Below are positions 2,740 through 47,927 of a stretch of 48,325 bases of DNA, one piece after another; within the stretch, counting starts at the first letter, position 1; each line of letters begins with the position of its first letter. The stretch lies in the IMG/VR virus record IMGVR_UViG_2728369182_000007; one strand, given 5' to 3'. The DNA is from a virus. Its lineage: Duplodnaviria; Heunggongvirae; Uroviricota; Caudoviricetes. Position numbers and translations under genes: made by a program. The notes beneath the pieces were generated by a model. It saw nothing but the letters and a program-made list of their open reading frames with translations. It had not been told where the DNA came from and searched no databases.

Positions 2740-2745
2740 TCCACA

Positions 2746-11300: not shown

Positions 11301-11310
11301 NNNNNNNNNN
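11301..11310. other. assembly gap (10 N)
   Basis: run of N. Confidence 1.
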
Positions 11311-28097: not shown

Positions 28098-28172
<75 letters not shown>

Positions 28173-28175
28173 ATA

Positions 28176-28251
<76 letters not shown>

Positions 28252-28253
28252 AC

Positions 28254-28330
28254 TGGACCGCCACCGGGGACTCGAACCTCGCACTCTCAACTTAAAGGGT
28301 TGACGCTCTTTCCTGATGAGCTAGTGGCGG
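28254..28330 (-). tRNA. tRNA-like gene with anticodon loop CCUUUAA (apparent anticodon UUU, C33)
   Basis: Manual fold: acceptor CCGCCAC/GTGGCGG, D-arm, anticodon stem TCAAC/GTTGA, T-loop TTCGAGT, CCA; non-canonical C at position 33. Confidence 0.5.
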
Positions 28331-28331
28331 T

Positions 28332-28407
28332 TGGTGGCCCTTGCTGGATTTGAACCAGCGACCTGGCGATTATGAGTCGCTCGCTCTCACCACTGAGCTA
28401 AAGGGCC
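28332..28407 (-). tRNA. ileZ: tRNA-Ile2 (anticodon CAU, ileX/ileZ-like)
   Basis: Manual fold; sequence GGCCCTTTAGCTCAGTGGTGAGAGCGAGCGACTCATAATCGCCAGGTCGCTGGTTCAAATCCAGCAAGGGCCACCA closely resembles E. coli ileX as recalled. Confidence 0.75.
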
Positions 28408-28529
28408 ATATGCGGAATAATACTTATGCCAGTTTAGCTCTGCAATACCCTACCCTGATTAAATCCTGCATATTGGCCTACACATGATAAAAGAATCTGA
28501 GCGGTCAACAGAAAGTTACTCAGGCAATA

Positions 28530-29249
28530 TTAACGAACTCTGACTACATTAATTTCAAAGTCATCAATCTGCCCGCTATTAAGTATAACGAATGCAGAAC
28601 TCCCATTACTGTACGATTTCGATAAAACCAGACGATCATCATAGCGTGCAAGAACGTAATACCAAGTATTCTCATAGTGGATCGTCTGATATTCCCTCTT
28701 AAACTGGGGTTTATACCAACCGGCAATAAGAGAGAATGTCCAGAAATAAATCATGAATCCAGCCATAATAAACTCAATTCGGTGATGGCGAATAAAAGAC
28801 ACTTCCGAAAAACATTTGACTGAAATAAGTCTTCTTCCTGACCTGACAAAAAGCGTAATTGTAAAGGCAGCAATAACACAAAAAAACAGCACATCTGGCT
28901 CAACGTGCTGATGAATTACCGAAAACTCCAGAACAGGCGGAATAAAAAGCAGCAATATTGCCAGAAAAAGTCTGATAAAACTCAAATTCTGTATATTGTT
29001 TTTTTGTTTTATGCCTAAAAAGAAAACAATACCTACTCCCCATCCAGTAAGGAATATAACGATAACGCTCACAGCATAAAACAAACTTCGGGCCACATCA
29101 TCAACGCCAACCCCGACGATCCACCATGGAAAGCCATAGTAAAAGGAAGTCCCCCATCCATAGAAATAAGCGCTTCCCCATCCAAGACAGCCCATATAAG
29201 CAATAAAAAGTGAAGAGTTCCTCAGCAGAGTGCTGTCATCCATACCCAT
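28530..29249 (-). CDS. AT-rich polytopic membrane protein of unknown function (239 aa), cargo gene between tR' and tRNA cluster
   Basis: ORF with 4-5 predicted TM segments rich in W/Y/F/G; local GC visibly lower than flanks; no family recognised. Confidence 0.55.
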   Translation of the reverse strand: MGMDDSTLLRNSSLFIAYMGCLGWGSAYFYGWGTSFYYGFPWWIVGVGVDDVARSLFYAVSVIVIFLTGWGVGIVFFLGIKQKNNIQNLSFIRLFLAILLLFIPPVLEFSVIHQHVEPDVLFFCVIAAFTITLFVRSGRRLISVKCFSEVSFIRHHRIEFIMAGFMIYFWTFSLIAGWYKPQFKREYQTIHYENTWYYVLARYDDRLVLSKSYSNGSSAFVILNSGQIDDFEINVVRVR

Positions 29250-29382
29250 CTCTCTAACAATTTTAAAACATCAACTCATCTTACATAACAAAGGAGATTC
29301 CATGCAGTCAAGAGACTTCAGAGCAGGAGAAACTCATTGCGCAATCGCCATCACGTTTAACGTTATGCACCGCTTTCCAGAT

Positions 29383-29408
29383 ATAAAAAACCCGCTCGAT
29401 GGCGGGCT
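29383..29408 (-). terminator. late terminator tR' downstream of Q
   Basis: CCCGC-TCGAT-GGCGGG hairpin followed by T6 on minus strand, ~85 bp downstream of Q stop. Confidence 0.65.
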
Positions 29409-29439
29409 GTAAAAATCCTTCTAACGTCAGGCATAAAAC

Positions 29440-29480
29440 GCCCATCGTTAGAGCAAATTTACCACAGATTCGGGAAAAAT
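29440..29480 (-). promoter_or_regulatory. candidate late promoter pR' / qut region
   Basis: Minus-strand TTGATT ... 16 nt ... TAAATT between Q stop and tR'; would make a short 6S-like transcript. Confidence 0.3.
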
Positions 29481-29488
29481 CAACAACA

Positions 29489-30310
29489 CTATCGCGTTAC
29501 CCTCTTTAACTGCCGCTCCGCCCATGCCTCTTCAATGTCAAACCGAACCACCAACGTATCGTAAAAGCGTTTCACTGATTTTTTCCACGTATCAAGCGTG
29601 ATAGCACTCGTCACTTTGCGTATGGCATTAAATGCCTCCGTTGATGGTAGTCTTTCATAGCCCCGACCGCCACAACGCTGGCAGTTCCTGATTACAGGCA
29701 TACCCCGTTTTTCCGACTCTTCACGATGAATGGCAACACCACGCCCACGGCAGTCTTTACAGGCAGTGGAAATCTCCCCCTTCCCTTTACATTCAGGACA
29801 AGAAACTTTCACCACCTCCCGGATTTTTTTCCATTCTTCCCAGTAAGACGGATACACACCTTTCGTACACTTTGCCCATACTGGCGGCTTGCCATCCGGA
29901 TACTGAACCTTGTTTGTAAAAACTTCGCTTTCAATAAATTTTTCCCCTCGGCAACAGGGGCACTGCTTTTTACTCGCTGCGCTGCGGGCATAATCCTCAA
30001 AAGCATACGAAGCCATAATGCGCATCACTGCCGGTTTTATTTCTGCCGGAAGTTTTCTTAACGCCGCCACGCGATCGCACTGACTTAATGCATAATCTGC
30101 CAGTAATTCTGTTGCCCGCGCCCTGTCATTCATACTAATACCCATTTTCCCCAGGAACGCAGAAAATCCCATCTCAGCCCGGTTTTGTGTCATACCCTGC
30201 GCAGCCATCACATCAGTGATGCTCAGCGCATCTTTTGACGTCGAGACGGATGCATCAGTCAGGCCTGGCGATTTTGGGGAATAGTATTTCGGTAAATCTT
30301 CCAGTCTCAT
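29489..30310 (-). CDS. late antiterminator Q-like protein
   Basis: 273 aa with multiple CxxC zinc-binding pairs, directly upstream of pR'/tR' and downstream of rusA as in DLP12/Qin prophages. Confidence 0.75.
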   Translation of the reverse strand: MRLEDLPKYYSPKSPGLTDASVSTSKDALSITDVMAAQGMTQNRAEMGFSAFLGKMGISMNDRARATELLADYALSQCDRVAALRKLPAEIKPAVMRIMASYAFEDYARSAASKKQCPCCRGEKFIESEVFTNKVQYPDGKPPVWAKCTKGVYPSYWEEWKKIREVVKVSCPECKGKGEISTACKDCRGRGVAIHREESEKRGMPVIRNCQRCGGRGYERLPSTEAFNAIRKVTSAITLDTWKKSVKRFYDTLVVRFDIEEAWAERQLKRVTR

Positions 30311-30684
30311 TTTTGGACCTGCCCGTCATGCATTATTTCGTAAATCTTCACGCCCAACCGACCACCAGGAACGAGCTGACCGCGCACAATATTGATTTCA
30401 TCAAACTGCTCGTCGTCTATAAGTAGTCCGGCATGCGTCAGCGCATCCAGTGGTGCTTTCAGGATATTGTCCAGGTCACGACGGCGCTTATCCGGTGGCT
30501 CTGCAATCACCTTTATCGCCAGCCTTCCGGACAGGTTTGATTTTAACCGCTGCCGGCGAACAATTAGCGCCACATCACGGCGATAACGCTCACCGACTTT
30601 TGATACAAAATATGTGTTGCCACGACGTCGCCAGTAAGTATTCACCGTCGGCGGATAAGGCAAAACAAACTCAATACGCATCAA
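30307..30684 (-). CDS. rusA: Holliday junction resolvase RusA
   Basis: 125 aa, MMRIEFVLPYPPTVNTYWRRRG... with conserved acidic residues; classic nin-region position. Confidence 0.85.
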   Translation of the reverse strand: MMRIEFVLPYPPTVNTYWRRRGNTYFVSKVGERYRRDVALIVRRQRLKSNLSGRLAIKVIAEPPDKRRRDLDNILKAPLDALTHAGLLIDDEQFDEINIVRGQLVPGGRLGVKIYEIMHDGQVQK

Positions 30685-30693
30685 TAACCTCTT

Positions 30694-31743
30694 TTACCCA
30701 AGCACGCCGGTTGCAAAGGCGTGATCAAGAAAACGAAAAATTAAATCAACCTGGGAACCATGCTTTTCTTCGAACGCCAGCGGATCCGCATGAAGTTCGT
30801 TGTGATGTTCCCGGCACAACGGTAGCGTGAAAATATCGTGGGCCTTTGTTCCCATCCCTCCCTGACCGTGACCAATCAGGTGATGGGGATCGTCGGCTGG
30901 CTGACCACAACACGCACACGGCTGTGTCTTCACCCAGCGCGTATATTTCTCATTTACCCAACGGCGACGTTTAGGTCGCCTCATGAAAGATTCCGGAGAG
31001 TCCGGATCAACGGCAATGCTGACCACCGCCTTTTCCAGTGGTGGGTTCTGTTGCTGGTGGAAGTGAGGCAACGGCGCAAGATTTTTTGTGCGCTGCTTTA
31101 GTATGCTGGTGGCGGTCTGCTCTCCCGGTACGATGTCGCTTTCGCGGTACACCGCGCGGATTTTTTCCGCACGTAACCCCAGAGAACGACGTAATACTGC
31201 CTCCGGAAGCGCGTCCGCCACTTGATTGCAGACCGCCCACCAGGATAATTCAGCCAGCGATAACTCCCGCTCCTGCGTGCCATTCATTGCATGGCGTATG
31301 ACGTCAATCATCCATGCTGCCAGGTTTTGTTGAGCAAGTTGCTCAAGTGATTCGGATGTCTGGTCACGCAGCTGGTTATCGCAGTGCCAGCACAACACCA
31401 TCGCGCCGGTGCCGTAACGATGTATGACGGTTTCACTGTGATGATAGTCACCATGAGGCCACTGGCAGGATTTGACATGACGCAACAGCCAGTCAGACAG
31501 TGCACCAGCGCCGCCAGCAGCACGAATCACACGCTCATTGCTGAAAAACCGCAGTAATGATTTATCCTCCGCCAGCGGCTGGCGAACGGCAGGGACGATG
31601 CCGGACGGCAGACCACGCATGCTTTTCGGTTCCGGCTCCACCAGCACTCGAGGGTTATGGAATACCTGCATGGATTCACGGCCTGGTTTAAGGACCACCA
31701 GCCCAAGTTCCGGTACCGGAACAGGTCGAAGTAATACCCGCAC
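30694..31743 (-). CDS. YdfU-like DUF968 protein
   Basis: 349 aa, C-terminal ...CACCGQPADDPHHLIGHGQGGMGTKAHD...PLCREHHNELH... motif; size and position match Qin ydfU. Confidence 0.75.
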   Translation of the reverse strand: MRVLLRPVPVPELGLVVLKPGRESMQVFHNPRVLVEPEPKSMRGLPSGIVPAVRQPLAEDKSLLRFFSNERVIRAAGGAGALSDWLLRHVKSCQWPHGDYHHSETVIHRYGTGAMVLCWHCDNQLRDQTSESLEQLAQQNLAAWMIDVIRHAMNGTQERELSLAELSWWAVCNQVADALPEAVLRRSLGLRAEKIRAVYRESDIVPGEQTATSILKQRTKNLAPLPHFHQQQNPPLEKAVVSIAVDPDSPESFMRRPKRRRWVNEKYTRWVKTQPCACCGQPADDPHHLIGHGQGGMGTKAHDIFTLPLCREHHNELHADPLAFEEKHGSQVDLIFRFLDHAFATGVLG

Positions 31744-31744
31744 G

Positions 31745-32020
31745 TTACCTCCAGATGCGTTGCTGGAATGTGCGGGACGGACGCGGTGGGCGCTCGGAGT
31801 ACGGCAGCCTGACGTAGATTATCCAGTGACGATAATCGAGGCTGAGGGCTTTCTTAACCTCGTATCCACGCCTGCGGTAACACTGAATTATCCATTCAGC
31901 CTGCTCTTCAGTGCATGGAGGATGCTGGAACCAGTCTGATTTGAATGCGTGAAAACGCCGTCCGCACCTGCTGGCAAAGACGGCAGAATCATTAGAATTG
32001 TGTAATTTGGTATCGTGCGC
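31745..32020 (-). CDS. hypothetical small protein (Rem-like position)
   Basis: Start placed at MAHDTKLH so the upstream terminator hairpin is outside the CDS; the six-frame ORF extends to 32152. Confidence 0.5.
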   Translation of the reverse strand, partial: AHDTKLHNSNDSAVFASRCGRRFHAFKSDWFQHPPCTEEQAEWIIQCYRRRGYEVKKALSLDYRHWIIYVRLPYSERPPRPSRTFQQRIWR

Positions 32021-32093
32021 CATCGGTTGTCTCTGCTGGCGCAGCAGGTGCCAGTTGTTCAGGCTGGCGTGCGAATTGTAAACCAGAATGCCA

Positions 32094-32121
32094 GGAAAAA
32101 ACAAAACCCGCCGAAGCGGGT
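32094..32121 (-). terminator. rho-independent terminator downstream of hok
   Basis: CCCGC-CGAA-GCGGG hairpin followed by TTTTGTTTTTT on minus strand. Confidence 0.6.
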
Positions 32122-32190
32122 TAAGTGCGGGTGCGTTGAGGATGCCTGACACATCAGAGGTGGCGAGGGATTTCTCCCCCGCCTGGTCTC

Positions 32191-32346
32191 TTACTCCTCA
32201 GGTTCGTAAGCTGTGAAGACAGCGACCTCCGTCTGGCCGGTTCGGATTCGTACCTCGCAGAGGTCTTTCCTCGTTACCAGTGCCGTCACTATGACGGTTA
32301 AACAGATGACGATCAGGGCGATTAACATCGCCTTTTGCTGCTTCAT
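32191..32346 (-). CDS. hok: Hok/Gef family type I toxin (HokD/RelF-like), 51 aa
   Basis: MKQQKAMLIALIVICLTVIVTALVTRKDLCEVRIRTGQTEVAVFTAYEPEE, Hok family signature with single TM and conserved Cys. Confidence 0.85.
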   Translation of the reverse strand: MKQQKAMLIALIVICLTVIVTALVTRKDLCEVRIRTGQTEVAVFTAYEPEE

Positions 32347-32583
32347 AGCCTGCTTCTCCTTGCCTTTCGGCACGTAAGAGGCTAACCTACATGTGTTCAG
32401 CATGGATTGAGCCTCAGATTAATGTTAAGCGTCTTGCAGGACGCGTAATGTTAACTGGGGCTTTTCTCTATCTGCCTTTTGGTGTTCATGCCTGAGGCAG
32501 ATAGCCTCAAGCACCCGCAGCAATTCTACTTAACTCACGTCACCTCGCCAATATGAAATCAATCAGAAAGGTGATCCATAAAA

Positions 32584-33270
32584 TCACTCCTTCTCTTCTT
32601 TTCCGTAGTGGAGTTGGCCAATTTTGATAAGAGGGCGCCCCTGAGATTTGCGGTGTAGATTGGTATCGCGCAGAGAATACACACAGCCACAATATTCCTG
32701 CTGATAGAATTTTTCGCGCTTGCTGATTTCAATCATACGGGACGAGCCGCCCTGCTTGCGCCAGTTATAATCCCAGTACACCATACCCGGATAATGCGCA
32801 ACAGCTCGCCGCCCACACTCGTTAACCTGCTGCATATTTTTCCAGCGTGAAATGCCCAGTGAACTGCTGATCACACTGAAACCATTTTCAGCAGCGTACA
32901 ACGCTGTCCGCTCAAAACGCATGTCAAAACACATGGTACAACGGATCCCCCTCTCAGGCTCCCATTCCATTCCTTTGGCACGTTCAAACCAGTTGTCGGT
33001 GTCGTAATCAGCATCGATAAACGGCACGCCGTGTTGTTCAGCAAAGCGAATATTTTCATCCTTACGAATTAAATACTCTTTCTGAGGATGAATGTTCGGG
33101 TTGTAGAAAAAGATGGTGTAGTCGATTCCCGAGGCCTGAAGCGCCTCCATCACTTCACCGGAACATGGAGCACAGCAAGAGTGCAGTAGTAGTTTGTTTG
33201 CCCCGTTTGGGAGCTCCAATTTAGGCCGTTTGAAATCAGCAATAGTCATAAATATTTTTATTGGGGTCAT
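32584..33270 (-). CDS. DUF208 / QueH-like protein (putative epoxyqueuosine reductase)
   Basis: 228 aa with N-terminal [14 protein letters not shown] motif and further conserved Cys ([16 protein letters not shown]); family assignment from memory. Confidence 0.5.
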
Positions 33271-34274: not shown

Positions 34275-34284
34275 NNNNNNNNNN
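34275..34284. other. assembly gap (10 N) joining nin-region fragment to a lysis cassette
   Basis: run of N; gene content either side is not contiguous in a phage. Confidence 1.
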
Positions 34285-35899: not shown

Positions 35900-36793
35900 C
35901 TAAATACGCACTTTAAGATAAGTCAGCCCCGGATGAAGCCAGTAAGCCGGCACTTTTTTAAAGGGTGGAGTATTAAAATCACGAAGAAGAGCCTCCCGCA
36001 CAATTGCATCCTTATCAGCACCACTGGCCAGCGCTTCAATCTCAGCGGCTACCTGAAGATATCCCATGCAACGGCCAACGCGCTTCATCAGCCCCTGCTT
36101 TTTATTGTTCTTCAGGTAATCAATGGCAAATTCAATGAGCTCCTCACTGTGCTGGTGCGATGGAGGTGTTACTTTCCCATTTTCTGAGATGGTTATTTTC
36201 CCAGCATCACCGGATACAACAAAGGATGGCCGGTTACACTCCCATTCCGGGTCACTGAAATTATCATTATGAATACTGAAACACTCTGCGAGATTTCTGC
36301 TCATCACTTTCCGACAATAATCGTCAAACGCAGCAAACTGCTTTTCATCGCCAGAAGGCACCAATATCGACCATTTCTTATTCAGCTCAACGACGTAGCT
36401 CTCCAGTTTTTCAATACGTGATTCAACATCATCTTTTTCTGACCGCAGTGTTGACGGCGGCATCTTCAGAGAACAAGTAATTCTTCCCGGTAGCTTTCCT
36501 TTGTAGGTTATCAACACATCCTGCGCCTCTAAAATTACGGGGCGCTTTTCCGGCAACGGTTCGTTCCATTCACATAACCCGGCAGCAACATCCATGAAAA
36601 ACTGCTTCGCCTGCTTTTTCGCCTCAGCTTCGTAAAACTCCAGCGTGGCACCTTCAGTACGGTCAAGACTAATCGCCACATCTGGCAACAACAGCGACGC
36701 TTGCCCGTCACCTTCCGACTTCACAGTAACAGTAACCTTATCCCCGTAATTATTTATCCCCTTAACAACCAGTTCATATTTTTTATTCATCAC
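35900..36793 (-). CDS. hypothetical protein (297 aa) between holin and endolysin
   Basis: N-terminal ~100 aa homologous to the 104-aa ORF at 27271-27585, plus ~190 aa extra C-terminal region. Confidence 0.55.
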   Translation of the reverse strand: MMNKKYELVVKGINNYGDKVTVTVKSEGDGQASLLLPDVAISLDRTEGATLEFYEAEAKKQAKQFFMDVAAGLCEWNEPLPEKRPVILEAQDVLITYKGKLPGRITCSLKMPPSTLRSEKDDVESRIEKLESYVVELNKKWSILVPSGDEKQFAAFDDYCRKVMSRNLAECFSIHNDNFSDPEWECNRPSFVVSGDAGKITISENGKVTPPSHQHSEELIEFAIDYLKNNKKQGLMKRVGRCMGYLQVAAEIEALASGADKDAIVREALLRDFNTPPFKKVPAYWLHPGLTYLKVRI

Positions 36794-37688: not shown

Positions 37689-39665
37689 TCATGCCGCGAT
37701 GTCCGCGTTGTTCACTTCCACCTTCACACTGTCAATCAGCAGCGTATATGTCGCCGCCTTTGATATGCCTGTCAGTTGCAGTTTGTCCGCCGCCCCTGAT
37801 GCCGGAGATTTCACCAGTGTGAACGGCGTCCCCCGTTTCTCATCCAGTACCGGCGTCACCTGAATGCTGTTGTTTCCGGCAAACTCAAAAGCCAGTGTGT
37901 GCCATCCGTTATCAAAGACCCCGAACGTTTCCAGCTTCGCATTCGGCTTCTTGTGGTGCATCGCGTTCAGGTTCGTCGCATCCGTCTGCAGAAAGAAGGA
38001 CATCAGCATGTCGTTGCCTTCCTCTGCCAGCGTCACTCCCTCCGGCAGGGACGACAACTGCCAGTAAATGCCCAGGGCAAACTGATTCGGCACCAGTGAA
38101 CCCGGCAACTTAAACCGTACGCTCACACGTCCCCCCTTCTTCAGTAACTCCACTCCCTGTCCGGCTGCATCATGCTCCAGAAACCAGATGTGGTTTTCCG
38201 GTTTATTCAGTTGCAGGGCCTTACCTCCCGTAGCCCCCGCATCACTGACCACCGCTTCAGCAATGTTTTTGTTAACATTGTCTCCGCTCGCCGGTTTGTG
38301 ATAATAGCGCCAGCCCTGTGATGCCAGGTCTTCGCCGGACGCCAGCAGACTCATCAGGGTTCGGTTACTGACCGGGGCTTCCGGCTCTCTCTCCGTACCT
38401 TCACCGGAAGGTCCGGTGGGCTTCACCGTATCAGGCTGTTTTCCGGTAATGAATTCAGCGTTTCTCCCGGCATGCACAAGAATCGCCGTTGCCAGACGGT
38501 CGGAAATAATCCCACGACGTGCCCATGATCCAAAATGCGTTTTACGGTCAGCCGTCGTCCAGGTTTTGGCGTCCGTTCGACCACCGGCTCCGTAATACCC
38601 AATATCCGCAACATCCGGATCTTCTGACGGCTCGTTGGTACCCACATTTCGCCCGTTTTCATCCGTCATAAACGGCACAAAGAAGATTTTTTTTGCGGAT
38701 TTCGTCTTGTATGCACCATACACCGCATCGTATTGCGAAGAATAAGTCTGCTTCCAGTAGTAGGTCGTGTCGCCACAAATCCAGGGAACCGATGACGGAG
38801 AGCCCCCGAGACACTGACCTCCGAATTCCGACAGGTCAGAACGATATTTTTCCACCATGGAATCAAACAGCCCCGGCTGGGTGGCGTATGCACCCTGTTT
38901 CAAATCAAACTCGCCCTGCATCCAGACCACTGCAAGCAGAATATTTTTAGGGTTGGCCTTCAGTGCGGCCTGAGTACGGGTAAGCAGGTCCTTGTACAGT
39001 GGCTTATCTACACCCCAGCGTGCCGAGGTCTCGCTTGCGCCGGTGGATTCGCTGAAGGTACCTTCATCGCCCGCCAAAAATGCAGAACCACCACGGCAGC
39101 ACGGAACCAGAAGAATACCGGCATTCGCCGGAATAAACGGCAACAATTTCTTCGCGATATGTAATCCCTGCCCCACGCATCCATACTGAGCTGCACTGGC
39201 TTTCGGGTGTGAAAACTTACTCAAATCCTGAACATCATGCAGGCAGTGGTCCGCAGGAATAATGTCATTGTAGTTACAGAACGCACCACCCGGCGTGACA
39301 GTGCTGCGACGCGCCAGCTGTTTAATACGCGGGTCCGGACGGTCATATGTCTCCGGCAGCGGAAGCCCTTCACCATACGCCATACCGTTTGACTGCCCGG
39401 CCAGGGCAACAACAAAGTAATACTCCGGGTTGCTGGTGGTGCTGATAACTGCGCCTTCTCCATCCGACGGCTTCACCACCACAGGTGTGGTGACATCACC
39501 TTCCGCCGCAATGGCCTGCATCAGGGTATAAGGCGTGATGGCCACCGGACTGCCAAATGGCTGCCACCCCTCCTTCAGTTTTTGTGTCAGTCGTTTCGCA
39601 AGGTCTGACGGCGATGCCGCCCTGACAACATCATAGTGTTTAAATGCCATGGTTCTTTCCACCAT
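37689..39665 (-). CDS. nanS-p: prophage sialate O-acetylesterase NanS-p-like (DUF1737 plus SGNH esterase)
   Basis: 658 aa; N-terminal MAFKHYDVVRAASPSDLAKRL... region and GQSNM esterase motif (…VALAGQSNGMAYG…); canonical position of this gene in Stx phages. Confidence 0.75.
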   Translation of the reverse strand: MVERTMAFKHYDVVRAASPSDLAKRLTQKLKEGWQPFGSPVAITPYTLMQAIAAEGDVTTPVVVKPSDGEGAVISTTSNPEYYFVVALAGQSNGMAYGEGLPLPETYDRPDPRIKQLARRSTVTPGGAFCNYNDIIPADHCLHDVQDLSKFSHPKASAAQYGCVGQGLHIAKKLLPFIPANAGILLVPCCRGGSAFLAGDEGTFSESTGASETSARWGVDKPLYKDLLTRTQAALKANPKNILLAVVWMQGEFDLKQGAYATQPGLFDSMVEKYRSDLSEFGGQCLGGSPSSVPWICGDTTYYWKQTYSSQYDAVYGAYKTKSAKKIFFVPFMTDENGRNVGTNEPSEDPDVADIGYYGAGGRTDAKTWTTADRKTHFGSWARRGIISDRLATAILVHAGRNAEFITGKQPDTVKPTGPSGEGTEREPEAPVSNRTLMSLLASGEDLASQGWRYYHKPASGDNVNKNIAEAVVSDAGATGGKALQLNKPENHIWFLEHDAAGQGVELLKKGGRVSVRFKLPGSLVPNQFALGIYWQLSSLPEGVTLAEEGNDMLMSFFLQTDATNLNAMHHKKPNAKLETFGVFDNGWHTLAFEFAGNNSIQVTPVLDEKRGTPFTLVKSPASGAADKLQLTGISKAATYTLLIDSVKVEVNNADIAA

Positions 39666-39910
39666 CTGAAAAATAATTCTTTAAAATACCTGACATGTAA
39701 TACAGAAAAAACACAAAACCATACCTTAAATAAAAACCTCATCATCAAGCAGATATGCATGGATAAACTACAAGACGAGATATAAACCACCCTGCATTTA
39801 AATAAACAATAAACAACATCAGAAAAATAATTCTGCTCTATGGTTTACATTCAAAAATATCATTTATACTTTTCAGAACATCACCAGCAAGACATAAACA
39901 AGGAAACTAA

Positions 39911-40246
39911 ATGAAGTGGATTGTGATTGATACAGTTATCCAGCCATCATGCGGAATATCTTTTTCAGTCATATGGAGTAAAATAAAATTAATAATCTGG
40001 TATCAATCGGATGCTTTCTTACCTCCTGAAAGTATATTTACACTGACTCACACAGGTATCATGCTCAATAACAAAGTGCTACCTGTAACCATTTACAACG
40101 TAGCACCATTCAATAAAACATTCTGGAATTTAATCAAAAACAGCCAGGAATGTCCTACAAATACAGATAACGTATTGAATGAATGCTTTAATAACCGTTG
40201 CACTCTGCAAATATGTCCTTATGGACTAAAACAACAAAGTCCATAA
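39911..40246 (+). CDS. hypothetical Cys-containing protein (111 aa), only convincing plus-strand gene
   Basis: AAGGA RBS 7 nt upstream of ATG; AT-rich; convergent with surrounding minus-strand genes. Confidence 0.4.
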
Positions 40247-40272
40247 GGAGTTTACTCACATCTGACAAAATC

Positions 40273-40294
40273 AATATAAACAGCCCCTCCGGAG
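40273..40294 (-). terminator. rho-independent terminator (minus strand)
   Basis: CAGCCCCTC-CGGAG-AGGGGCTG hairpin followed by TTTATATTGATTTT on minus strand. Confidence 0.55.
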
Positions 40295-40693
40295 AGGGGC
40301 TGGAGAGTGGCGCTATGTGCCATTGCATGGTGCCGGGTGCCTCCCGGTGAATTCAGTACCAGCACCTGAATCCGCGATTATCCCATATACCTACTCGCTG
40401 ATTGCCCCTCCGCACAGGGGGATTCACCATGCCAGTTTCTTTTAACAAACTCCCCGCAAACCAGACAACAGTCAACCGCCTGAATTGTGAAGTATTTAAA
40501 AATTTCTCCCGCTAACTGATACCCGGCTAACAGTCTGGCGTTTTCTTTTTCAGCAACGGGAAAGCAACAACCACCACACCCGCCACCAGCACACCGTCAG
40601 CCAGCACTGACATTATCCGGCTGCTGCAATGCCACTCACAAAAACAGTAAGCAATCACTTTTTACCGTAACAAGTGATAATCCAGATATGTAT

Positions 40694-41047
40694 CTACCCC
40701 AGATGAGTAATCCGAAGTTCATCCATACCACAGGTACTGGCTATTCTGTTGTACTCCTGAACAAGAGCAAATAATTCTGAATTAGCAACCATGAACTCAT
40801 CGCAAACCCTCTGTATAGCATCACTATTCAGAATAATAACGTCTCTTCCCGAAAGACGATCAGGAGTACAGAACAAAACTGTCAAACGGCTGAAGGCCTT
40901 TGCTCGTCCTGCATTGACTATATCAATACGCTGCCTAAGGATGAAACACCCCGACGCCTCATCAATATTCACTCTACCCACACCATATGAATGATAAATA
41001 TTTAATGCTGAAAAAACCATTAGACCGTATAACAAACACTCAATCAA
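40694..41047 (-). CDS. hypothetical protein (117 aa) in stx-equivalent position
   Basis: AT-rich ORF directly downstream of tRNA-Arg; no similarity to Stx subunits by eye. Confidence 0.4.
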   Translation of the reverse strand: MIECLLYGLMVFSALNIYHSYGVGRVNIDEASGCFILRQRIDIVNAGRAKAFSRLTVLFCTPDRLSGRDVIILNSDAIQRVCDEFMVANSELFALVQEYNRIASTCGMDELRITHLG

Positions 41048-41160
41048 TACTTAACAGAACTTTTATTTTTGACAAACATAAAATATTTTCAACAATATCC
41101 TGAGCCAGGTATATTTCAGTATAAGGCTCTGCCGGAAGGAATCTGGAAGAATGAATATAG

Positions 41161-41234
41161 CGCGCTGTACTGGATTCGAACCAGTGACCGATTGCTTAGA
41201 AGGCAATTGCTCTGTCCGGCTGAGCTAACAACGC
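41161..41234 (-). tRNA. tRNA-Arg (anticodon UCU), CCA not encoded
   Basis: Manual fold: acceptor GCGTTGT/ACAGCGC, anticodon stem ATTGC/GCAAT, loop CUUCUAA, T-arm CACTGG-TTCGAAT-CCAGT. Confidence 0.7.
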
Positions 41235-41247
41235 TGAATACCGATAA

Positions 41248-41327
41248 TGGACCGCCATCGGGGACCCGCCCCCGCACCAACAACCCTGTTATCGTGTCGT
41301 CTGCTCTTCCTGATAAGCTAATGGCGG
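41248..41327 (-). pseudogene. degenerate tRNA-like sequence (homologue of tRNA at 28254-28330)
   Basis: Shares acceptor and D-arm with the copy-1 tRNA but no pairable anticodon stem or canonical T-loop found by manual folding. Confidence 0.4.
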
Positions 41328-41334
41328 TTTGTGA

Positions 41335-41410
41335 TGGTGGCCCTTGCTGGATTTGAACCAGCGACCTGGCGATTATGAGTCGCTCGCTCTCACCACTGAG
41401 CTAAAGGGCC
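41335..41410 (-). tRNA. ileZ: tRNA-Ile2 (anticodon CAU), second copy
   Basis: Identical or near-identical to 28332-28407. Confidence 0.75.
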
Positions 41411-41449
41411 GGGAGCAGAATAATAACGGTCCGTAATTAATTCCGCAAT

Positions 41450-41472
41450 AAAAAACCCGCTCGGCGGCGGGT
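41450..41472 (-). terminator. late terminator tR' downstream of second Q
   Basis: CCCGC-TCGGCG-GCGGG hairpin plus T6 on minus strand. Confidence 0.6.
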
Positions 41473-41553
41473 TGTAGAAACTCTTCTAACGTCAGGCATA
41501 AAAAGCCCATTATTATGACGAATTTACCACAGATTCCGGAAAAATCAACCTTG

Positions 41554-42375
41554 TTACCTAGTTACCTTTTTTAACTGCCGCTCAGCCCATGCTTCTTCAA
41601 TATCAAACCGGGTCACCAGCGCATCATAGAATTTCTTAACTGTTTTTTCCCATGACGCGCGTGTTATCTGGTTTGTCACCTCGCATATAGCATTAAATGC
41701 CTCCGTTGATGGTAGTCTTTCATAGCCACGACCACCACAACGCTGGCAGTCTCTGATAACAGGCATACCACGTTTTACCGACTCTTCACGATGAATGGCG
41801 ACACCACGCCCACGGCAATCCTTACAGGCGGTGGAAACCTCACCCTTTCCGCCACACTCCGGACAGGCAACTTTTACCACCTCCCTGACTTTTTTCCATT
41901 CTTCCCAGTAAGACGAATACACACCTTTCGTACACTTTGCCCATACCGGCGGCTTACCATCCGGATACTGGACCTTGTTTGTAAAAACTACGCTTTCAAT
42001 AAATTTTTCCCCATAGCAACAAGGGCACTGCTTTTTACTCGCTGCGCTGCGGGCATAATCCTCAAAAGCGTACGAAGCCATAATGCGCATCACTACCGGT
42101 TTTATTTCTGCCGGAAGTTTTCTCAACGCCGCCACACGATCGCACCGACTGAGTGCATAATCTGCCAGTAATTCTGTTGCCCGCGCCCTGTCATTCATAC
42201 TGATGCCCATTTTCCCCAGGAACGCAGAAAAACCCATCTCAGCCCGATTCTGTGTCATGCCCTGCGCGGCCATCACATCAGTGATACTCAGCGCATCTTT
42301 TGACGTTGAGGCCGATGCATCGGTCAGGCCAGGGGATTTTGGGGAGTAGTATTTCGGTAAATCTTCCAGTTTCAT
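41554..42375 (-). CDS. late antiterminator Q-like protein (second copy)
   Basis: 273 aa, ~95 percent identical to 29489-30310 by eye. Confidence 0.75.
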   Translation of the reverse strand: MKLEDLPKYYSPKSPGLTDASASTSKDALSITDVMAAQGMTQNRAEMGFSAFLGKMGISMNDRARATELLADYALSRCDRVAALRKLPAEIKPVVMRIMASYAFEDYARSAASKKQCPCCYGEKFIESVVFTNKVQYPDGKPPVWAKCTKGVYSSYWEEWKKVREVVKVACPECGGKGEVSTACKDCRGRGVAIHREESVKRGMPVIRDCQRCGGRGYERLPSTEAFNAICEVTNQITRASWEKTVKKFYDALVTRFDIEEAWAERQLKKVTR

Positions 42376-42389
42376 TTTTTGACCTGCTC

Positions 42390-42752
42390 TTAATGCATTA
42401 TGGGGTAAATCTTCACCCCCAGACGTCCACCAGATACTGGCTGACCACGAACGATATTGATTTCATCAAACTGCTCATCGTCCATTAACACTCCCGCATG
42501 CGTCAGCGCATCCAGCGGTGCTTTCAGGATATTGTCCAGGTCGCGACGACGCTTATCCGGTGGCTCTGCAATCACCTTTATCGCCAGCCTTCCGGACAGG
42601 TTTAATTTCAGCCGCTGCTGGCGAACAATTAGCGCCACATCACGGCGATAACGCTTTCCGGCCTCCGAGATGAAATACGTATTGCCATGACGTCGCCAGT
42701 AGGTATTCACCGTCGGCGGGTAAGGCAAAACAAATTCTATGCGTTCAGTCAT
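42390..42752 (-). CDS. rusA: Holliday junction resolvase RusA (second copy)
   Basis: 120 aa, homologous to 30307-30684. Confidence 0.85.
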   Translation of the reverse strand: MTERIEFVLPYPPTVNTYWRRHGNTYFISEAGKRYRRDVALIVRQQRLKLNLSGRLAIKVIAEPPDKRRRDLDNILKAPLDALTHAGVLMDDEQFDEINIVRGQPVSGGRLGVKIYPIMH

Positions 42753-43813
42753 TCATGCTTTCCACTTCAGGACACCCGAATTTCTCGCGTGCATTAAAAA
42801 ACGAATCAGCAACAACAGCTGGCTGCCGTGTTTTTCTTCAAAATCTTTTACCCCGGCGTGCAGTTCGTTATGACATTTACGGCACAGCGGAATAACAAAC
42901 AAATCATCAGCCTTTGTTCCCATACCTCCCAGGCCATGATCAATGATGTGATGCGGATCATCTGCCTGATTACCGCACGTCATGCATTTCTGCGTTTTTA
43001 CCCAGCGCGTGTATACAGGCATCTCTTCCCGTTGTGGTTTCTGGCGCTGGAGATACTGAGCCGGAGACTCCGGATCAACGGCGATGCTTACTAACGTCTT
43101 TTCCTGGAGTGGGGGCTGTTGCTGGTGGACGTGAAGTGGCAGCGCAATATTTTTTGTGCGCTGCTTCAGTATGCTGGTGGCAGTCTGTTCTCCCGGTACG
43201 ATGTCACTCTCACGGTATACGGAGCGGATTTTTTCCACCGGTAATCCCAGTGAACGACACAATACAGACTCCGGAAGCGCATCAGCCACCTGATTGCAGA
43301 CCGCCCACCAGGATAATTCGGCCAGCGATAACTCCCTCTCCTGCGTACCGCTGATTGCGTGACGGATGACGTCAATCATCCATGCTGACAAGTTTTGGTG
43401 AGCAAGTTGCTCAAGTGATTCTGAGGTCTGGTCACACAACTGGTTGTCGCAGTGCCAGCACAACACCATTGCGCCGGTACCATAACGGTGAATGACGGTT
43501 TCACTGTGGTGATAATCACCGTGTGGCCACTGGCAGGATTTAATATGGCGCAACAGCCAGTCAGACAGTGCACCAGCGCCGCCAGCAGCACGAATCACAC
43601 GCTCATTGNNNNNNNNNNTGGCAGTAATGATTTATCCTCCGCCAGCGGCTGGCGAACGGCAGGGACGACTCCGGATGGCAGGCCGCACATGCTTTTCGGT
43701 TCCGGCTCCACCAGCACTCGAGGATTATGAAATATCTGTATGGATTCACGGCCCGGCTTAAGGACCACCAGCCCAAGCTCAGGCACCAGAACAGGTCTAA
43801 GTAATACCCGCAC
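42753..43813 (-). CDS. YdfU-like DUF968 protein (second copy, contains 10-N gap)
   Basis: Homologous to 30694-31743 on both sides of the gap. Confidence 0.7.
43609..43618. other. assembly gap (10 N)
   Basis: run of N. Confidence 1.
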
Positions 43814-43814
43814 G

Positions 43815-44087
43815 TTACCTCCAGATCCGTTGCTGGAAAGTGCGGGACGGACGTGGTGGGCGTTCGGAATAAGGCAGCCTGACAGAGATTATCCAGTGCC
43901 GATAGTCGAGACTGAGAGCTTTCTTAACCTCGAACCCGCGCCTGCGGTAAGAATGAATCAGCCATTCGGCCTGTTCTTCAGTACATGGTGGGTGTTGGTA
44001 CCAGTCGGTTTTAAATGCGTGTGAACGCCGCTCATGCCGGATGGCAAGGTCGGTATCAGAATTGTGAAATTTGGTTTTGTGCGCCAT
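43815..44087 (-). CDS. hypothetical small protein (Rem-like position), second copy
   Basis: 90 aa, homologous to 31745-32020. Confidence 0.5.
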   Translation of the reverse strand: MAHKTKFHNSDTDLAIRHERRSHAFKTDWYQHPPCTEEQAEWLIHSYRRRGFEVKKALSLDYRHWIISVRLPYSERPPRPSRTFQQRIWR

Positions 44088-44160
44088 CTGTTTTCTCTGC
44101 TGGCGCAGCAGGTGTCAGGTGTTCAGGCTGACGTGCGAATTGTAAACCAGAATGCCAGGA

Positions 44161-44190
44161 AAAAACAAAACCCGCCGAAGCGGGTTAAGT
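44161..44190 (-). terminator. rho-independent terminator downstream of hok (second copy)
   Basis: Same hairpin and U-tract as 32094-32121. Confidence 0.6.
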
Positions 44191-44254
44191 GCGGGTGCGT
44201 TGAGGATGCCTGACACATCAGAGGTGGCGAGGGATTTCTCCCCCGCCTGGTCTC

Positions 44255-44410
44255 TTACTCCTCAGGTTCGTAAGCTGTGAAGACAGCGACCTCCGTCTGG
44301 CCGGTTCGGATTCGTACCTCGCAGAGGTCTTTCCTCGTTACCAGTGCCGTCACTATGACGGTTAAACAGATGACGATCAGGGCGATTAACATCGCCTTTT
44401 GCTGCTTCAT
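44255..44410 (-). CDS. hok: Hok/Gef family type I toxin (second copy)
   Basis: Nucleotide sequence identical to the hok CDS at 32191-32346 over the compared stretch; ATG at 44408-44410. Confidence 0.8.
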   Translation of the reverse strand: MKQQKAMLIALIVICLTVIVTALVTRKDLCEVRIRTGQTEVAVFTAYEPEE

Positions 44411-44668
44411 AGCCTGCTTCTCCTTGACCTTTCGGTCCGTAAGAGGCTAATCTCTATGTGTCGCATAGATATGGCCTCAGATTAATGTTAAGCGTCTTGC
44501 AGGACGCGTAATGTTAACTGGGGCTTTTCTCTATCTGCCTTTTGGTGTTCATGCCTGAGACAGATAGCCTCAAGCACCCGCAGTCATTCTACTTAACTAA
44601 GATTTCCCCGCAAACCGTTTTTGTCCGGCACAGTAAATATCCAACTAAACCAATGGCGTTCGCTGTAT

Positions 44669-46653: not shown

Positions 46654-47927
46654 TTACCCCCTGAAGCCCGGCGGAATTTCGTTATCCGGTTCAGAAATAT
46701 GATTCACACAACGCTGGTTGTTCGTGCCGCTTACCGGGAGCAGCCAGGGGTTTTCAAAATTCCGGTCCGGTCCAAAAAACGTCGTCGCTCGCTGAACAAA
46801 TTCCGTTCCCGTTTTCCCGGTAGCCGCAAGGTATCTTGCGTAACGCCTCACGCCATCCAGCATGGCCTCTGGTGGCACCCCCTCGCGTAATCTGGCTTTC
46901 CAGGCACTGAAAGCGGATTTCTTCGGGTTTGCCCCGGCACGCAACGGGTATTCCCGCCAGACCTGTTCGAACACATCAGGATAATCCACTCGTCCCACAG
47001 GCTGCCCGGTGTTTTCCGGGACTACCCGATCGGCTTCCCGCTGAATGGCGGAATCGGCTTCAGGCTGCTGAAGTTGGTGTGATTGCTCCTGCCTTGCGGT
47101 CATCACCTGCTGCACAGCGCCCGAATCGGCTTTCAGCGCATACGCTGAATCGGCTTCCGGTGTCGTGCCTGCTGGCTGACCAAGATTGACGGTCTGAACA
47201 TCCCCTGCCTGGTTCGTGGCGTTTTTTACGCCATGGACCATAGTGTNNNNNNNNNNGGGCTGGCCAGGAGTGACGGTCTGAACATCCCCTGCCTGGTTCG
47301 TGGCGTTTTTTACGCCATGGACCATAGTGTTTTGATCTTCTTGATCTGTATCTTTATCTGTATCTTTATCTGTCGTGACTCGTCGTGACATGTGCGTGAC
47401 ATTTCGTGACGCGCCGTGACAATCGCCATTTTGTTCCCGCTTTCTTTCCCTCTCTCGCTGCGCCCTCTTGCGCTCTGCAGGAGATTTTGCGGTTTGCGAA
47501 ATATTGCCGTTGTCCTCTTTAAGCACCTGGCGTTTTTCCCATCCAGTGATTAAATCACCATCAAGTACCCGCCCCTGCATCNNNNNNNNNNCGGAGATTT
47601 TGCGGTTTGCGAAATATTGCCGTTGTCCTCTTTCAGCACCTGGCGTTTTTCCCATCCAGTGATTAAATCACCATCAAGTACCCGCCCCTGCATCGTCTGC
47701 AAAATTGAATCAATTACCTCTTCTGTCACGTCGAGCGCACTTGCCAAATCTTCTGTCGTGACATCAATGTGACCTCGCGTGACATTTCGTGACGCGCTCA
47801 CCAGGAGGTGGATATACACTGCCATCACTGTTGCAATTGGCTGCCCTGACACCCTGGCAATTGTTCGCCACTTAGGGTCATTTGGCATGTCATGCCATAA
47901 TCTGAGCCAGGCGTTAGCCATACTCAC
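46654..47927 (-). CDS. putative phage replication initiator / replisome organiser (split by two 10-N gaps)
   Basis: N-terminal MSMANAWLRLWHDMPNDPKWRTIARVSG... region; internal iteron arrays; gaps at 47247-47256 and 47582-47591 are flanked by duplicated sequence. Confidence 0.4.
47247..47256. other. assembly gap (10 N) flanked by direct duplicate of about 50 bp
   Basis: run of N; ctgaacatcccctgcctggttcgtggcgttttttacgccatggaccatagtgt present on both sides. Confidence 1.
47373..47420. repeat. iteron-like array: five CGTGAC motifs phased at 10 bp
   Basis: tCGTGACtcgtCGTGACatgtgCGTGACatttCGTGACgcgcCGTGAC; preceded by tandem tctttatctgta repeat at 47345-47372. Confidence 0.6.
47582..47591. other. 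assembly gap (10 N) flanked by direct duplicate of about 110 bp
   Basis: 47468-47581 repeats 47592-47705 almost exactly. Confidence 1.
47756..47792. repeat. second iteron-like array: four (C)GTGAC motifs phased at 10 bp
   Basis: tCGTGACatcaatGTGACctcgCGTGACatttCGTGAC plus inverted GTCACG at 47726-47731. Confidence 0.55.

What the first reader, a model, noticed from the sequence alone, without database searches (positions are those of the whole stretch)
39666..41160. Stx-phage architecture without stx: two unknown AT-rich ORFs in the toxin slot of late region 2
Late region 2 runs Q, tR', tRNA-Ile2, tRNA remnant, tRNA-Arg(UCU), then nanS-p and the lysis genes, which is the Stx-prophage layout. 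Where stxAB would be there is instead a 117-aa minus-strand ORF (40694-41047) and a convergent 111-aa plus-strand ORF with a good RBS (39911-40246), separated by about 450 bp of non-coding DNA with hairpins. Neither resembles Stx subunits by eye, so this may be a replaced or novel cargo module.
Basis: partly seen in the sequence, partly recalled or inferred. Interest (0 to 1): 0.7.

Follow-up and report, generated by a model that had tools for sequence, protein, structure and literature searches.

The report
Known iraL prophage locus, not novel cargo
The stretch between the phage tRNAs and the sialate esterase gene is a common E. coli prophage accessory region holding the already-characterised stress regulator gene iraL, the known small RNA STnc100, a broken tciB gene and one real but uncharacterised 92-residue protein gene, so it is largely ordinary.

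Summary
The content is mostly known. The 111-aa ORF is IraL, 110/111 identical to the experimentally characterised RssB anti-adaptor of E. coli CFT073, with its mapped transcription start conserved. The whole slot is 97.4% identical to the CFT073 potB prophage and occurs in 863 of 5426 complete E. coli genomes. The "non-coding 450 bp" holds a full-length STnc100 sRNA (Rfam 132 bits, gathering score 47) and a 43-aa DUF3927/TciB remnant beside a tciA deletion scar. Alignment with Stx2 phages shows that STnc100, an IraL-like gene and nanS-p are shared flanks also present beside stx2. Only window 40491-41149 is allelic to stx2AB. Within it, the 117-aa ORF is a real gene but shorter: 92 aa with a GTG start at 40972. 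Three allele classes give dN/dS 0.23-0.29. The gene belongs to phrog_2873, models as an alpha-helical hairpin, has unknown function, and is almost never annotated by PGAP. Verdict: an alternative cargo cassette in a known mosaic hot spot. It is already known apart from orf92, so interest is low.

The parts
41554..42375 (-). Late antiterminator Q (273 aa); start of late region 2
   Evidence: PF03589 Antiterm 183.7 bits and phrog_127. PGAP calls it 'antitermination protein' in identical genomes.
41454..41473 (-). Intrinsic-terminator-like hairpin downstream of Q (candidate tR')
   Evidence: AACCCGCCGCCGAGCGGGTT followed by TTTTATTG. Its role as tR' is inferred from position.
41335..41410 (-). 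tRNA with CAU anticodon (ileZ-type tRNA-Ile2; PGAP calls it tRNA-Ile)
   Evidence: ARAGORN, Rfam tRNA 72.5 bits. Identical to ileZ of CFT073 and the Stx2a phage. PGAP annotation.
41248..41327 (-). Degenerate argN tRNA remnant
   Evidence: Aligns to tRNA-Arg of CFT073 and the Stx2a phage, but the D and anticodon arms are scrambled. Not detected by ARAGORN or Rfam.
41160..41234 (-). tRNA-Arg(UCU), argO type; left boundary shared with Stx phages
   Evidence: ARAGORN, Rfam 68 bits. Window 41450-41150 aligns to the Stx2a phage tRNA block at 88%.
40973..41159 (-).
   Evidence: Promoter function is not shown.
   Evidence: phrog_2873 E 6.6e-70. Three allele classes all have 92 codons without indels; dN/dS 0.23-0.29, against about 0.8-1.2 in shifted frames. 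PGAP annotates the 92-aa form in strain EC556. The N-terminal extension is out of frame in strain 88-3493. AF2 pLDDT 75 with the first 16 residues disordered. Present in 1312 of 5426 genomes.
40659..40686 (-). Deletion scar: last ~25 nt of tciA (TerB-like gene) plus the tciA/tciB junction ACGGTAAAAA
   Evidence: Alignment with phage JLK-2012 tciA-tciB. Intact orf95-tciA-tciB cassette in Citrobacter loci.
40527..40658 (-). Truncated tciB / DUF3927 ORF (43 aa): keeps only the second hydrophobic helix
   Evidence: PF13064 95.6 bits and phrog_1470. 28/29 identical to JLK-2012 TciB residues 23-51, with the first helix missing. PGAP WP_000562553.1.
40272..40461 (-). STnc100-family sRNA gene ending in an intrinsic terminator (hairpin 40281-40302); right boundary shared with Stx2 phages
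   Evidence: Rfam RF02076, 132.4 bits against gathering 47, model 1-206/206. Terminator. Fold -74.6 kcal/mol, z -2.3. Same element 75 nt after stx2B in the Stx2a phage and in the literature (PMC12370729).
39844..39910 (+). iraL promoter and 33-nt 5' UTR: -35-like TTTACA 39844-39849, -10-like TATACT 39865-39870, transcription start 39878, SD AAGGAA 39901-39906
   Evidence: The published 5'-RACE end ACATCACCAGCAAGGCATAAACAAGGAAACCA (PMC4045071) matches window 39878-39909 with 2 mismatches. The upstream region is nearly identical to CFT073. The hexamer assignment is my reading, because the paper's figure could not be read.
39911..40246 (+). iraL: RssB anti-adaptor (111 aa), convergent with late transcription
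   Evidence: NCBIfam NF007393 162.4 bits (cut-off 121). 110/111 identical to CFT073 IraL WP_000871291.1. Matches the IraM crystal chain 8TWD_A at E 2e-32. Function from PMC4045071.
37689..39665 (-). nanS-p-type sialate O-acetylesterase (658 aa), intact here
   Evidence: DUF1737 + SASA + DUF6645. Aligns to yjhS/nanS-p of Stx2 phages at about 70-72%.

Best explanation
Window 39666-41160 is the variable accessory ('moron') region of a lambdoid prophage of the CFT073 phi-potB type. It lies between the Q-tRNA block and the nanS-p and lysis genes, and it holds four elements.

1. iraL has its own sigma-70 promoter and points against late transcription, so it can be expressed from the repressed prophage. 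Its product binds the N-terminal domain of the adaptor RssB, stops delivery of RpoS to ClpXP and so raises RpoS during exponential growth. This was shown experimentally for the 99%-identical CFT073 protein and is inferred here.

2. A STnc100-family small RNA runs in the same direction as late transcription and carries its own terminator. Its target is unknown.

3. A tciA deletion scar sits next to a truncated tciB (DUF3927). This is probably a decayed remnant.

4. orf92 is a constrained 92-residue cytoplasmic alpha-helical-hairpin protein placed exactly where stxA sits in Stx phages. It would be transcribed with the Q-antiterminated late operon on induction, and possibly also from a weak promoter of its own.

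Only window 40491-41149 (orf92 plus the tciAB remnant) is allelic to stx2AB. The argO tRNA on one side and STnc100 on the other are conserved flanks, and cargo cassettes (stx2AB, tciAB, tolA-like genes, orf92) appear to be swapped between them by homologous recombination.

My best guess for orf92 is a small protein-binding accessory factor that originally worked with the TerB-like TciA and the membrane peptide TciB in envelope or phage-exclusion-type functions, and that keeps a function of its own. That last step is weakly supported inference.
For: - Identity of iraL: NCBIfam IraM above the curated cut-off; 110/111 aa identical and slot DNA 97.4% identical to CFT073; the published transcription start is conserved; the experimentally shown function is in PMC4045071; a solved IraM structure matches.
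- STnc100: full-length Rfam hit at nearly three times the gathering score, ending at a predicted terminator, with the same element after stx2B, after tciB and in CFT073.
- Slot boundaries: blastn against two Stx2a phages.
- orf92 is real: dN/dS 0.23-0.29 across three allele classes with no indels; PGAP calls the 92-aa form in EC556; distant relatives of 91-95 aa exist.
- Cassette linkage: orf95-tciA-tciB upstream of the lysis genes in Citrobacter braakii; tciA-tciB in the same slot of phage JLK-2012; scar and truncation in the window.
- Prevalence: 863 genomes hold at least 80% of the slot, and 1312 hold orf92.
- No stx remnants.
Against: - No expression data exist for this strain, so IraL activity is inferred from a one-residue-different orthologue.
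- The function of STnc100 is unproven in the literature.
- orf92 has no Pfam, NCBIfam or PADLOC hit and no significant fold match, so its proposed role rests only on gene neighbourhood.
- orf92 persists without tciA in all three E. coli allele classes, which weakens the functional link to TciAB.
- The GTG start of orf92 has only a weak Shine-Dalgarno in the window.
- PGAP does not annotate orf92 in most genomes.
- Cassette exchange by recombination at argO and STnc100 is inferred from mosaic alignments and was not demonstrated.
Confidence: 0.85

Rival explanations
1. One reading: the two ORFs form a novel or replaced cargo module (possibly a new toxin or virulence factor) sitting where stxAB would be.
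For: The stxAB position is indeed filled by different intact DNA rather than a scar. orf92 is uncharacterised and as rich in rare AUA/AGA/AGG codons as stx2A.
Against: - The plus-strand ORF is published iraL and lies outside the segment allelic to stx.
- An IraL-like gene coexists with stx2 in 41 phage records.
- The module is in 16-24% of complete E. coli genomes from humans, animals, water and soil.
- orf92 has no signal peptide or transmembrane segment, is acidic, and models as a helical hairpin with no toxin-like fold.
Confidence: 0.07
2. The minus-strand ORF is a chance open frame in AT-rich spacer DNA, as implied by its absence from PGAP annotation. On this view the slot holds only iraL, the sRNA and decayed remnants.
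For: - PGAP leaves it unannotated in CFT073, MCJCHV-1 and nearly all of about 1186 genomes with at least 95% identity.
- It has a TTG or GTG start with a weak Shine-Dalgarno.
- Neighbouring argN and tciAB are visibly decayed.
- The close pair window versus CFT073 shows 3 non-synonymous and 1 synonymous change.
Against: - Three allele classes about 57-65% identical in protein keep exactly 92 codons.
- dN/dS is 0.23-0.29 and third-position changes are about twice those at the other positions. The same DNA read in the two shifted frames of the ORF's strand gives dN/dS of about 0.8-1.2 with 3-11 stops, and all three reverse-strand frames also contain stops.
- Relatives at 32-40% identity and of the same length occur in Citrobacter and metagenomes.
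- The AF2 model is confident over the conserved core only.
Confidence: 0.05
3. The region is a simple deletion derivative of an Stx phage that lost stxAB, leaving a scar.
For: The flanks (tRNAs, STnc100, IraL-like gene, nanS-p) are collinear with Stx2 phages, and the preprint 10.64898/2026.05.13.724894 suggests repeated stx loss in related regions.
Against: - No protein- or DNA-level stx remnant exists in the window.
- The 659 bp between the flanks is unrelated DNA carrying an intact constrained gene and a remnant of a different cassette, tciAB.
- The flanks are only 72-88% identical to Stx2 phages, so this is a different lineage and not a recent deletion.
Confidence: 0.03

Closest known systems
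iraL locus of the phi-potB prophage ('potB genomic island') of uropathogenic E. coli CFT073 (Hryckowian et al., mBio 2014, PMC4045071)
   Same: Same gene order: Q, tRNAs, orf92, DUF3927, STnc100, iraL. DNA is 97.4% identical over 1855 bp, IraL is 110/111 identical, and the same promoter and transcription start are present.
   Different: CFT073 has an IS200 between Q and the tRNAs, an intact argN, and only a DUF1737 stub of nanS-p. The window has a degenerate argN and a full-length nanS-p. IraL differs by A65V.
stx2 locus of Stx2a/Stx2c-converting phages (e.g. Stx2_EH2201, WGPS2, 2851, 1717)
   Same: Same frame: ileZ-argN-argO, cargo, STnc100, antisense IraM-family gene, nanS-p, DUF1378, DUF826, holin.
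   Different: The cargo is stx2AB (1368 bp) instead of orf92 plus the tciAB remnant (659 bp). The flanks are only 72-88% identical. The IraM-family protein is a distinct 107-aa class, 76% identical to IraL. A DNA methylase gene precedes the tRNAs in the stretch fetched, and Q was not located there.
IraM of E. coli K-12 (PhoP-induced RssB anti-adaptor; structure 8TWD)
   Same: Same protein family and same target RssB; 63% identity; conserved N-terminal 78 residues.
   Different: The promoter region is unrelated and the genomic context differs (next to e14 and ycgX). [quoted passage not shown]
STnc100 (Rfam RF02076) and the related PasD prophage sRNAs
   Same: Full-length match in sequence and structure, intrinsic terminator, and a position upstream of the sialate esterase gene in a Q-to-lysis region.
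   Different: No validated target or seed is known for this copy. Here there is a single copy, whereas strain 88-3493 carries five.
tciA-tciB cassette of lambdoid phages (e.g. Escherichia phage JLK-2012; phrog_632 and phrog_1470)
   Same: Same slot between the tRNAs and STnc100. The window's DUF3927 ORF is 28/29 identical to the C-terminal half of JLK-2012 TciB.
   Different: tciA is deleted except for about 25 nt, tciB has lost its first hydrophobic helix, and orf92 is present upstream, as in the Citrobacter version.

Membership tests
IraM/IraL/RssC anti-adaptor family (specifically IraL) | Sequence membership above the curated threshold | tested here: met
   NF007393 162.4 bits against cut-off 121, full length 1-110 of 114.
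IraM/IraL/RssC anti-adaptor family (specifically IraL) | At least 95% identity to CFT073 iraL (the paper's criterion separating iraL from iraM) | tested here: met
   110/111 aa identical, with the locus 97.4% identical at DNA level. Only 63% identical to K-12 IraM. Criterion.
IraM/IraL/RssC anti-adaptor family (specifically IraL) | iraL-type sigma-70 promoter and mapped transcription start, not the PhoP-dependent iraM promoter | tested here: met
   30 of 32 nt match the 5'-RACE sequence. The upstream 200 bp is nearly identical to CFT073 and unrelated to the K-12 iraM upstream region.
IraM/IraL/RssC anti-adaptor family (specifically IraL) | Binds the RssB N-terminal domain and stabilises RpoS | not testable with these tools
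   Shown for the CFT073 protein (PMC4045071) and inferred here.
STnc100 sRNA (RF02076) | Covariance-model score above the gathering threshold over the full model | tested here: met
   132.4 bits against 47, model positions 1-206 of 206.
STnc100 sRNA (RF02076) | Rho-independent terminator at the 3' end | tested here: met
   A 9-bp GC-rich stem at 40302..40281 followed by a T-rich tail; it matches the model's terminal hairpin.
STnc100 sRNA (RF02076) | Expressed as a discrete small RNA | not testable with these tools
   Only RT-qPCR detection in STEC vesicles has been reported for homologous copies (PMC12370729). No convincing promoter was found directly upstream.
Stx-converting prophage late region | Q - ileZ/argN/argO tRNAs - cargo - nanS-p - holin order | tested here: met
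Stx-converting prophage late region | Presence of stxA/stxB | tested here: not met
   No tblastn or blastn match better than E 0.3 anywhere in the window.
DUF3927 / TciB-like small membrane protein | Pfam match above the gathering score | tested here: met
   PF13064 95.6 bits against 25.
DUF3927 / TciB-like small membrane protein | Full-length two-helix architecture with an upstream tciA partner | tested here: not met
   The ORF is 43 aa against 50-54 aa in full-length members, the first hydrophobic helix is replaced by unrelated residues, and tciA is reduced to about 25 nt.
phrog_2873 (orf92 family, unknown function) | Profile match and conserved length of about 92-95 aa | tested here: met
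   E 6.6e-70. Relatives are 91-95 aa. Purifying selection shown.

The most novel reading that the evidence does not exclude
orf92 may be an overlooked, widely distributed late-operon cargo protein with a function of its own. It is in about a quarter of complete E. coli genomes, is almost never annotated there, and occupies the stxA position. The argO tRNA and the STnc100 element may together form a defined cassette-exchange site through which stx2AB, tciAB, tolA-like genes and orf92 replace one another. On that reading STnc100 would be a modular 3' boundary element (terminator plus recombination homology) as well as an sRNA.
Probability: 0.2. Interest if true: 0.5.

Novelty: already known. Interest (0 to 1): 0.2.

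Why it matters
For the finding as stated, little changes. The supposedly unknown cargo is a published lysogenic-conversion gene (iraL) sitting beside a catalogued sRNA in a very common prophage.

Three things of modest value came out of the check:

- The segment allelic to stx2AB is precisely delimited by argO and STnc100. This helps in reading mosaic Stx and non-Stx prophages.
- orf92 is a constrained gene that standard annotation skips in more than a thousand complete genomes.
- Stx2c/Stx2a phages carry a third IraM/IraL class directly beside stx2. The IraL study did not capture it, and it could bear on that paper's open question of why some STEC strains have high log-phase RpoS without iraL.

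Tried and rejected
- Pfam, NCBIfam and PADLOC scans of orf92 gave nothing.
- A profile search of orf92 against PDB sequences gave only noise, with E at least 0.36.
- Foldseek of the AF2 model against PDB and BFVD returned only generic helical hairpins, with best E about 0.2-0.5.
- A literature search for DUF3927 and TciB returned only unrelated papers, mostly on Trypanosoma genotypes. The 'Tci' function labels are therefore annotation text only.
- The search for related loci with the divergent family alignment failed for lack of a conserved stretch. The single-protein scan found only Citrobacter braakii.
- P0013 could not be located by exact look-up.
- I looked for a promoter directly upstream of STnc100 and for a tciA remnant by tblastn. 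Neither gave anything significant; the scar was visible only in the DNA alignment.
- The stx-deletion-scar idea is rejected.
- The idea that the PGAP pseudo-ORF 40317-40442(+) is a gene is rejected, because it lies antisense inside the sRNA.
Full report
**Observation**

Late region 2 lies on the minus strand. The elements, in order of late transcription, are:

- Q, 41554-42375 (PF03589).
- A terminator-like hairpin, 41454-41473.
- A CAU-anticodon tRNA of the ileZ type, 41335-41410.
- tRNA-Arg(UCU), 41160-41234.
- A 658-aa DUF1737-SASA-DUF6645 esterase (nanS-p type), 37689-39665.
- DUF1378, a P21-type holin, DUF1327 and a downstream ORF in the lysozyme position.

The 100 bp between the two tRNAs aligns with argN of CFT073 and of an Stx2a phage, but its D and anticodon arms are scrambled. 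The "tRNA remnant" is therefore real. No Stx-like sequence exists anywhere in the window.

**The plus-strand 111-aa ORF is iraL**

- It exceeds NCBIfam's curated IraM cut-off, at 162 bits against 121.
- The slot 39666-41160 is 100% identical in many complete E. coli genomes, where PGAP annotates [quoted passage not shown]. 863 of 5426 genomes hold at least 80% of it.
- Hryckowian et al. (mBio 2014, PMC4045071) characterised IraL of UPEC CFT073. [quoted passage not shown]
- I retrieved that island. It is a lambdoid prophage with the order Q, IS200, tRNA-Ile, tRNA-Arg, tRNA-Arg, gap, DUF3927, pseudo-ORF, IraM-family gene, DUF1737 stub, holin.
- The window is 97.4% identical to it over 1855 bp, and the protein is 110/111 identical, differing by A65V.
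- The published 5'-RACE end matches window 39878-39909 at 30 of 32 positions.
- The upstream 200 bp is nearly identical to CFT073 and unrelated to the K-12 iraM promoter region.
- The N-terminal 78 residues match the solved IraM chain 8TWD_A at E 2e-32.

This ORF is therefore a known, experimentally characterised lysogenic-conversion gene.

**The "non-coding 450 bp" is not empty**

Rfam gives a full-length match to the sRNA family STnc100 (RF02076) at 40272-40461 on the minus strand. The score is 132.4 bits against a gathering score of 47. The match ends in the GC-rich hairpin 40302..40281 followed by a T-rich tail.

The literature places STnc100 75 nt downstream of the stx2 operon in Stx2 phages (PMC12370729). 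It is also described as related to the prophage sRNA PasD, which lies upstream of the sialate esterase gene (Zhu, Shabalina and Storz, bioRxiv 10.64898/2026.05.13.724894). Its function remains unproven.

Upstream of the sRNA is a 43-aa DUF3927 ORF, 40527-40658 on the minus strand (PF13064 95.6 bits; phrog_1470 "TciB-like").

**Where the toxin slot really is**

I ran blastn of the window against Stx2a phages Stx2_EH2201 and WGPS2.

- Window 41450-41150 aligns to the tRNA block at 88%.
- Window 40490-38463 aligns at 72% to the phage segment that starts 46 nt after the stx2B stop.
- That phage segment runs through STnc100, an antisense 107-aa IraM-family ORF and nanS-p.
- My own Rfam scan puts STnc100 at L006 3198-3409, exactly 75 nt after stx2B.

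Only window 40491-41149 (659 bp) is therefore allelic to the 1368-bp stx2AB segment. iraL and STnc100 are shared flanks, not replacements for the toxin.

The same slot holds other cargo in other phages:

- tciA-tciB in phage JLK-2012.
- Other small ORFs in vB_EcoS-640R1.
- In strain 88-3493, a tolA-like gene plus an HTH gene, followed by orf92 itself.

STnc100 recurs at the 3' edge of these cargos. Strain 88-3493 carries four tandem copies after orf92 and a fifth after the tolA-like gene.

**The minus-strand ORF**

PGAP does not annotate this ORF in MCJCHV-1 or CFT073. It nevertheless matches phrog_2873 at E 6.6e-70 from its residue 10.

A homologue search found 23 clusters, all Escherichia or Shigella, including forms at 54-60% identity. 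These forms lie in the same Q-to-nanS-p interval.

The evidence that it is a real gene of 92 codons is as follows:

- A DNA alignment shows that conservation begins at the GTG at window 40972.
- In strain 88-3493 the upstream extension is out of frame with the conserved core.
- In strain EC556, PGAP annotates exactly the 92-aa GTG-started form, with an AGGAG Shine-Dalgarno.
- Three allele classes all keep 92 codons without indels.
- Pairwise dN/dS is 0.23-0.29 with a third-position excess (for example 19/19/40). The shifted frames give about 0.8-1.2 and contain many stops.

An exhaustive profile search of 1.84 billion representatives found only 21 hits, including distant members of 91-95 aa. 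One of them is from Citrobacter braakii.

AlphaFold2 on the family alignment gives pLDDT 75 and pTM 0.63. The model is two long helices joined by a short turn, with the non-conserved N-terminus disordered.

No function could be assigned. Foldseek gave no significant match. Pfam, NCBIfam, PADLOC and PDB-sequence searches found nothing. The protein is acidic (pI 5.2) and lacks a signal peptide or membrane segment. It uses AUA/AGA/AGG codons as heavily as stx2A, 7.6% against 7.2%.

Its DNA is present in 1312 of 5426 complete E. coli genomes and is almost always unannotated there. Among 50,697 phage records only one carries it, mEp460_ev081.

**A decayed neighbour**

In the Citrobacter loci the orf92 relative is followed by a 141-aa TerB-like gene (phrog_632; PF05099) and a 50-aa DUF3927 gene. 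Holins and an endolysin come next.

In the window, the last ~25 nt of tciA and the tciA/tciB junction (ACGGTAAAAA) survive between orf92's stop codon and the DUF3927 start. The DUF3927 ORF keeps only the second hydrophobic helix of TciB, 28/29 identical to JLK-2012, behind an unrelated N-terminus.

The slot therefore contains a tciA deletion scar and a truncated tciB. The functional labels attached to "Tci" are annotation text only, and I found no supporting literature.

**Mechanism**

Shown elsewhere and inferred here: iraL is transcribed from its own sigma-70 promoter in the lysogen. IraL sequesters RssB, RpoS escapes ClpXP, and stress resistance rises during growth.

Inferred from orientation: orf92, tciB' and STnc100 are co-directional with the pR' late transcript. 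Q-modified polymerase would express them on induction and would run antisense through iraL.

Inferred from mosaic alignments: argO and STnc100 provide the homology at which cargo cassettes are exchanged.

The role of orf92 is unknown. Neighbourhood suggests an accessory protein-binding factor once linked to TciAB, but its persistence without tciA argues for an independent function.

**Comparison and novelty**

The locus is essentially the published CFT073 iraL locus. It is collinear with the stx2 locus of Stx2 phages apart from the cargo cassette. It is not an stx deletion scar, not a new toxin module, and not new to the databases. I rate it already known and of low interest.

The residual open item is orf92. 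The most novel reading not excluded is that orf92 is a functional late-expressed cargo protein and that argO/STnc100 form a defined cassette-exchange site. I give that a probability of about 0.2.

Noticed in passing
L006 3420-3743 (Stx2a phage Stx2_EH2201); also 41 phage records: A third IraM/IraL class sits antisense between stx2B-STnc100 and nanS-p in Stx2c/Stx2a phages of O157:H7. It is 107 aa, 76% identical to IraL, and has an iraL-like upstream region with TTGCTT..TATAAT. It is mostly unannotated. The IraL paper saw only two sequence classes and noted that STEC strains with high log-phase RpoS lack iraL, so this gene is an untested candidate explanation.
   Followed up: partly
L014 2665-2877 and 4637-5616 (E. 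coli 88-3493); L002 5165-5358 and 5634-5822: STnc100 occurs as four tandem copies plus a fifth in one prophage, and twice in another phage, each time at the 3' edge of a cargo gene. This suggests a modular boundary or terminator element and not only a single-copy sRNA gene.
   Followed up: partly
window 40694-40972 (-) and 1312 E. coli genomes: orf92 is under clear purifying selection, yet PGAP leaves it unannotated in nearly all genomes that carry the common allele. This is a systematic annotation gap.
   Followed up: yes
window 40317-40445 (+): PGAP annotates a partial 'hypothetical protein' pseudogene here in identical genomes. It lies antisense inside the STnc100 gene and is probably spurious.
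   Followed up: partly
window 28098-33270 and 41160-44579: The window holds two successive hok/sok - DUF968 - Q - tRNA late segments. The sok genes are at 32341-32516 and 44408-44579, and the two 273-aa Q genes at 29489-30310 and 41554-42375. The first segment carries a different tRNA set (Met, Lys, Thr, Gly at 28098-28407). No complete E. coli genome holds 80% of 24000-48325 in one place. This points to tandem or composite prophages, or an assembly join.
   Followed up: partly
window 4389-4466, 5995-6004, 8237-8300, 9600-9609, 11301-11310, 12963-13012, 34275-34284, 43609-43618, 47247-47256, 47582-47591: There are ten runs of N (10-78 bases), several of them inside long ORFs such as the DUF968 gene at 42753-43598. 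These are masked or unresolved stretches that break gene calls.
   Followed up: no
window 32584-33270 (-): A QueH-like epoxyqueuosine reductase ORF (PF02677, 221 bits) sits in the early/nin region of the first prophage segment. It is a queuosine-pathway gene carried by a prophage.
   Followed up: no
window 35900-36793 (-): The ORF after the holin is 297 aa, but only its first ~100 residues match DUF1327/YdfR. The rest has no Pfam assignment. It may be a fusion or a read-through of a normally ~100-aa gene.
   Followed up: no
L012 4681-6108 (E. coli K-12): K-12 iraM lies just outside the annotated e14 boundary, next to ycgX (DUF1398, a family common in lambdoid prophages). This suggests that K-12 iraM also sits in a prophage remnant; the IraL paper places it 'on the e14 prophage'.
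   Followed up: no
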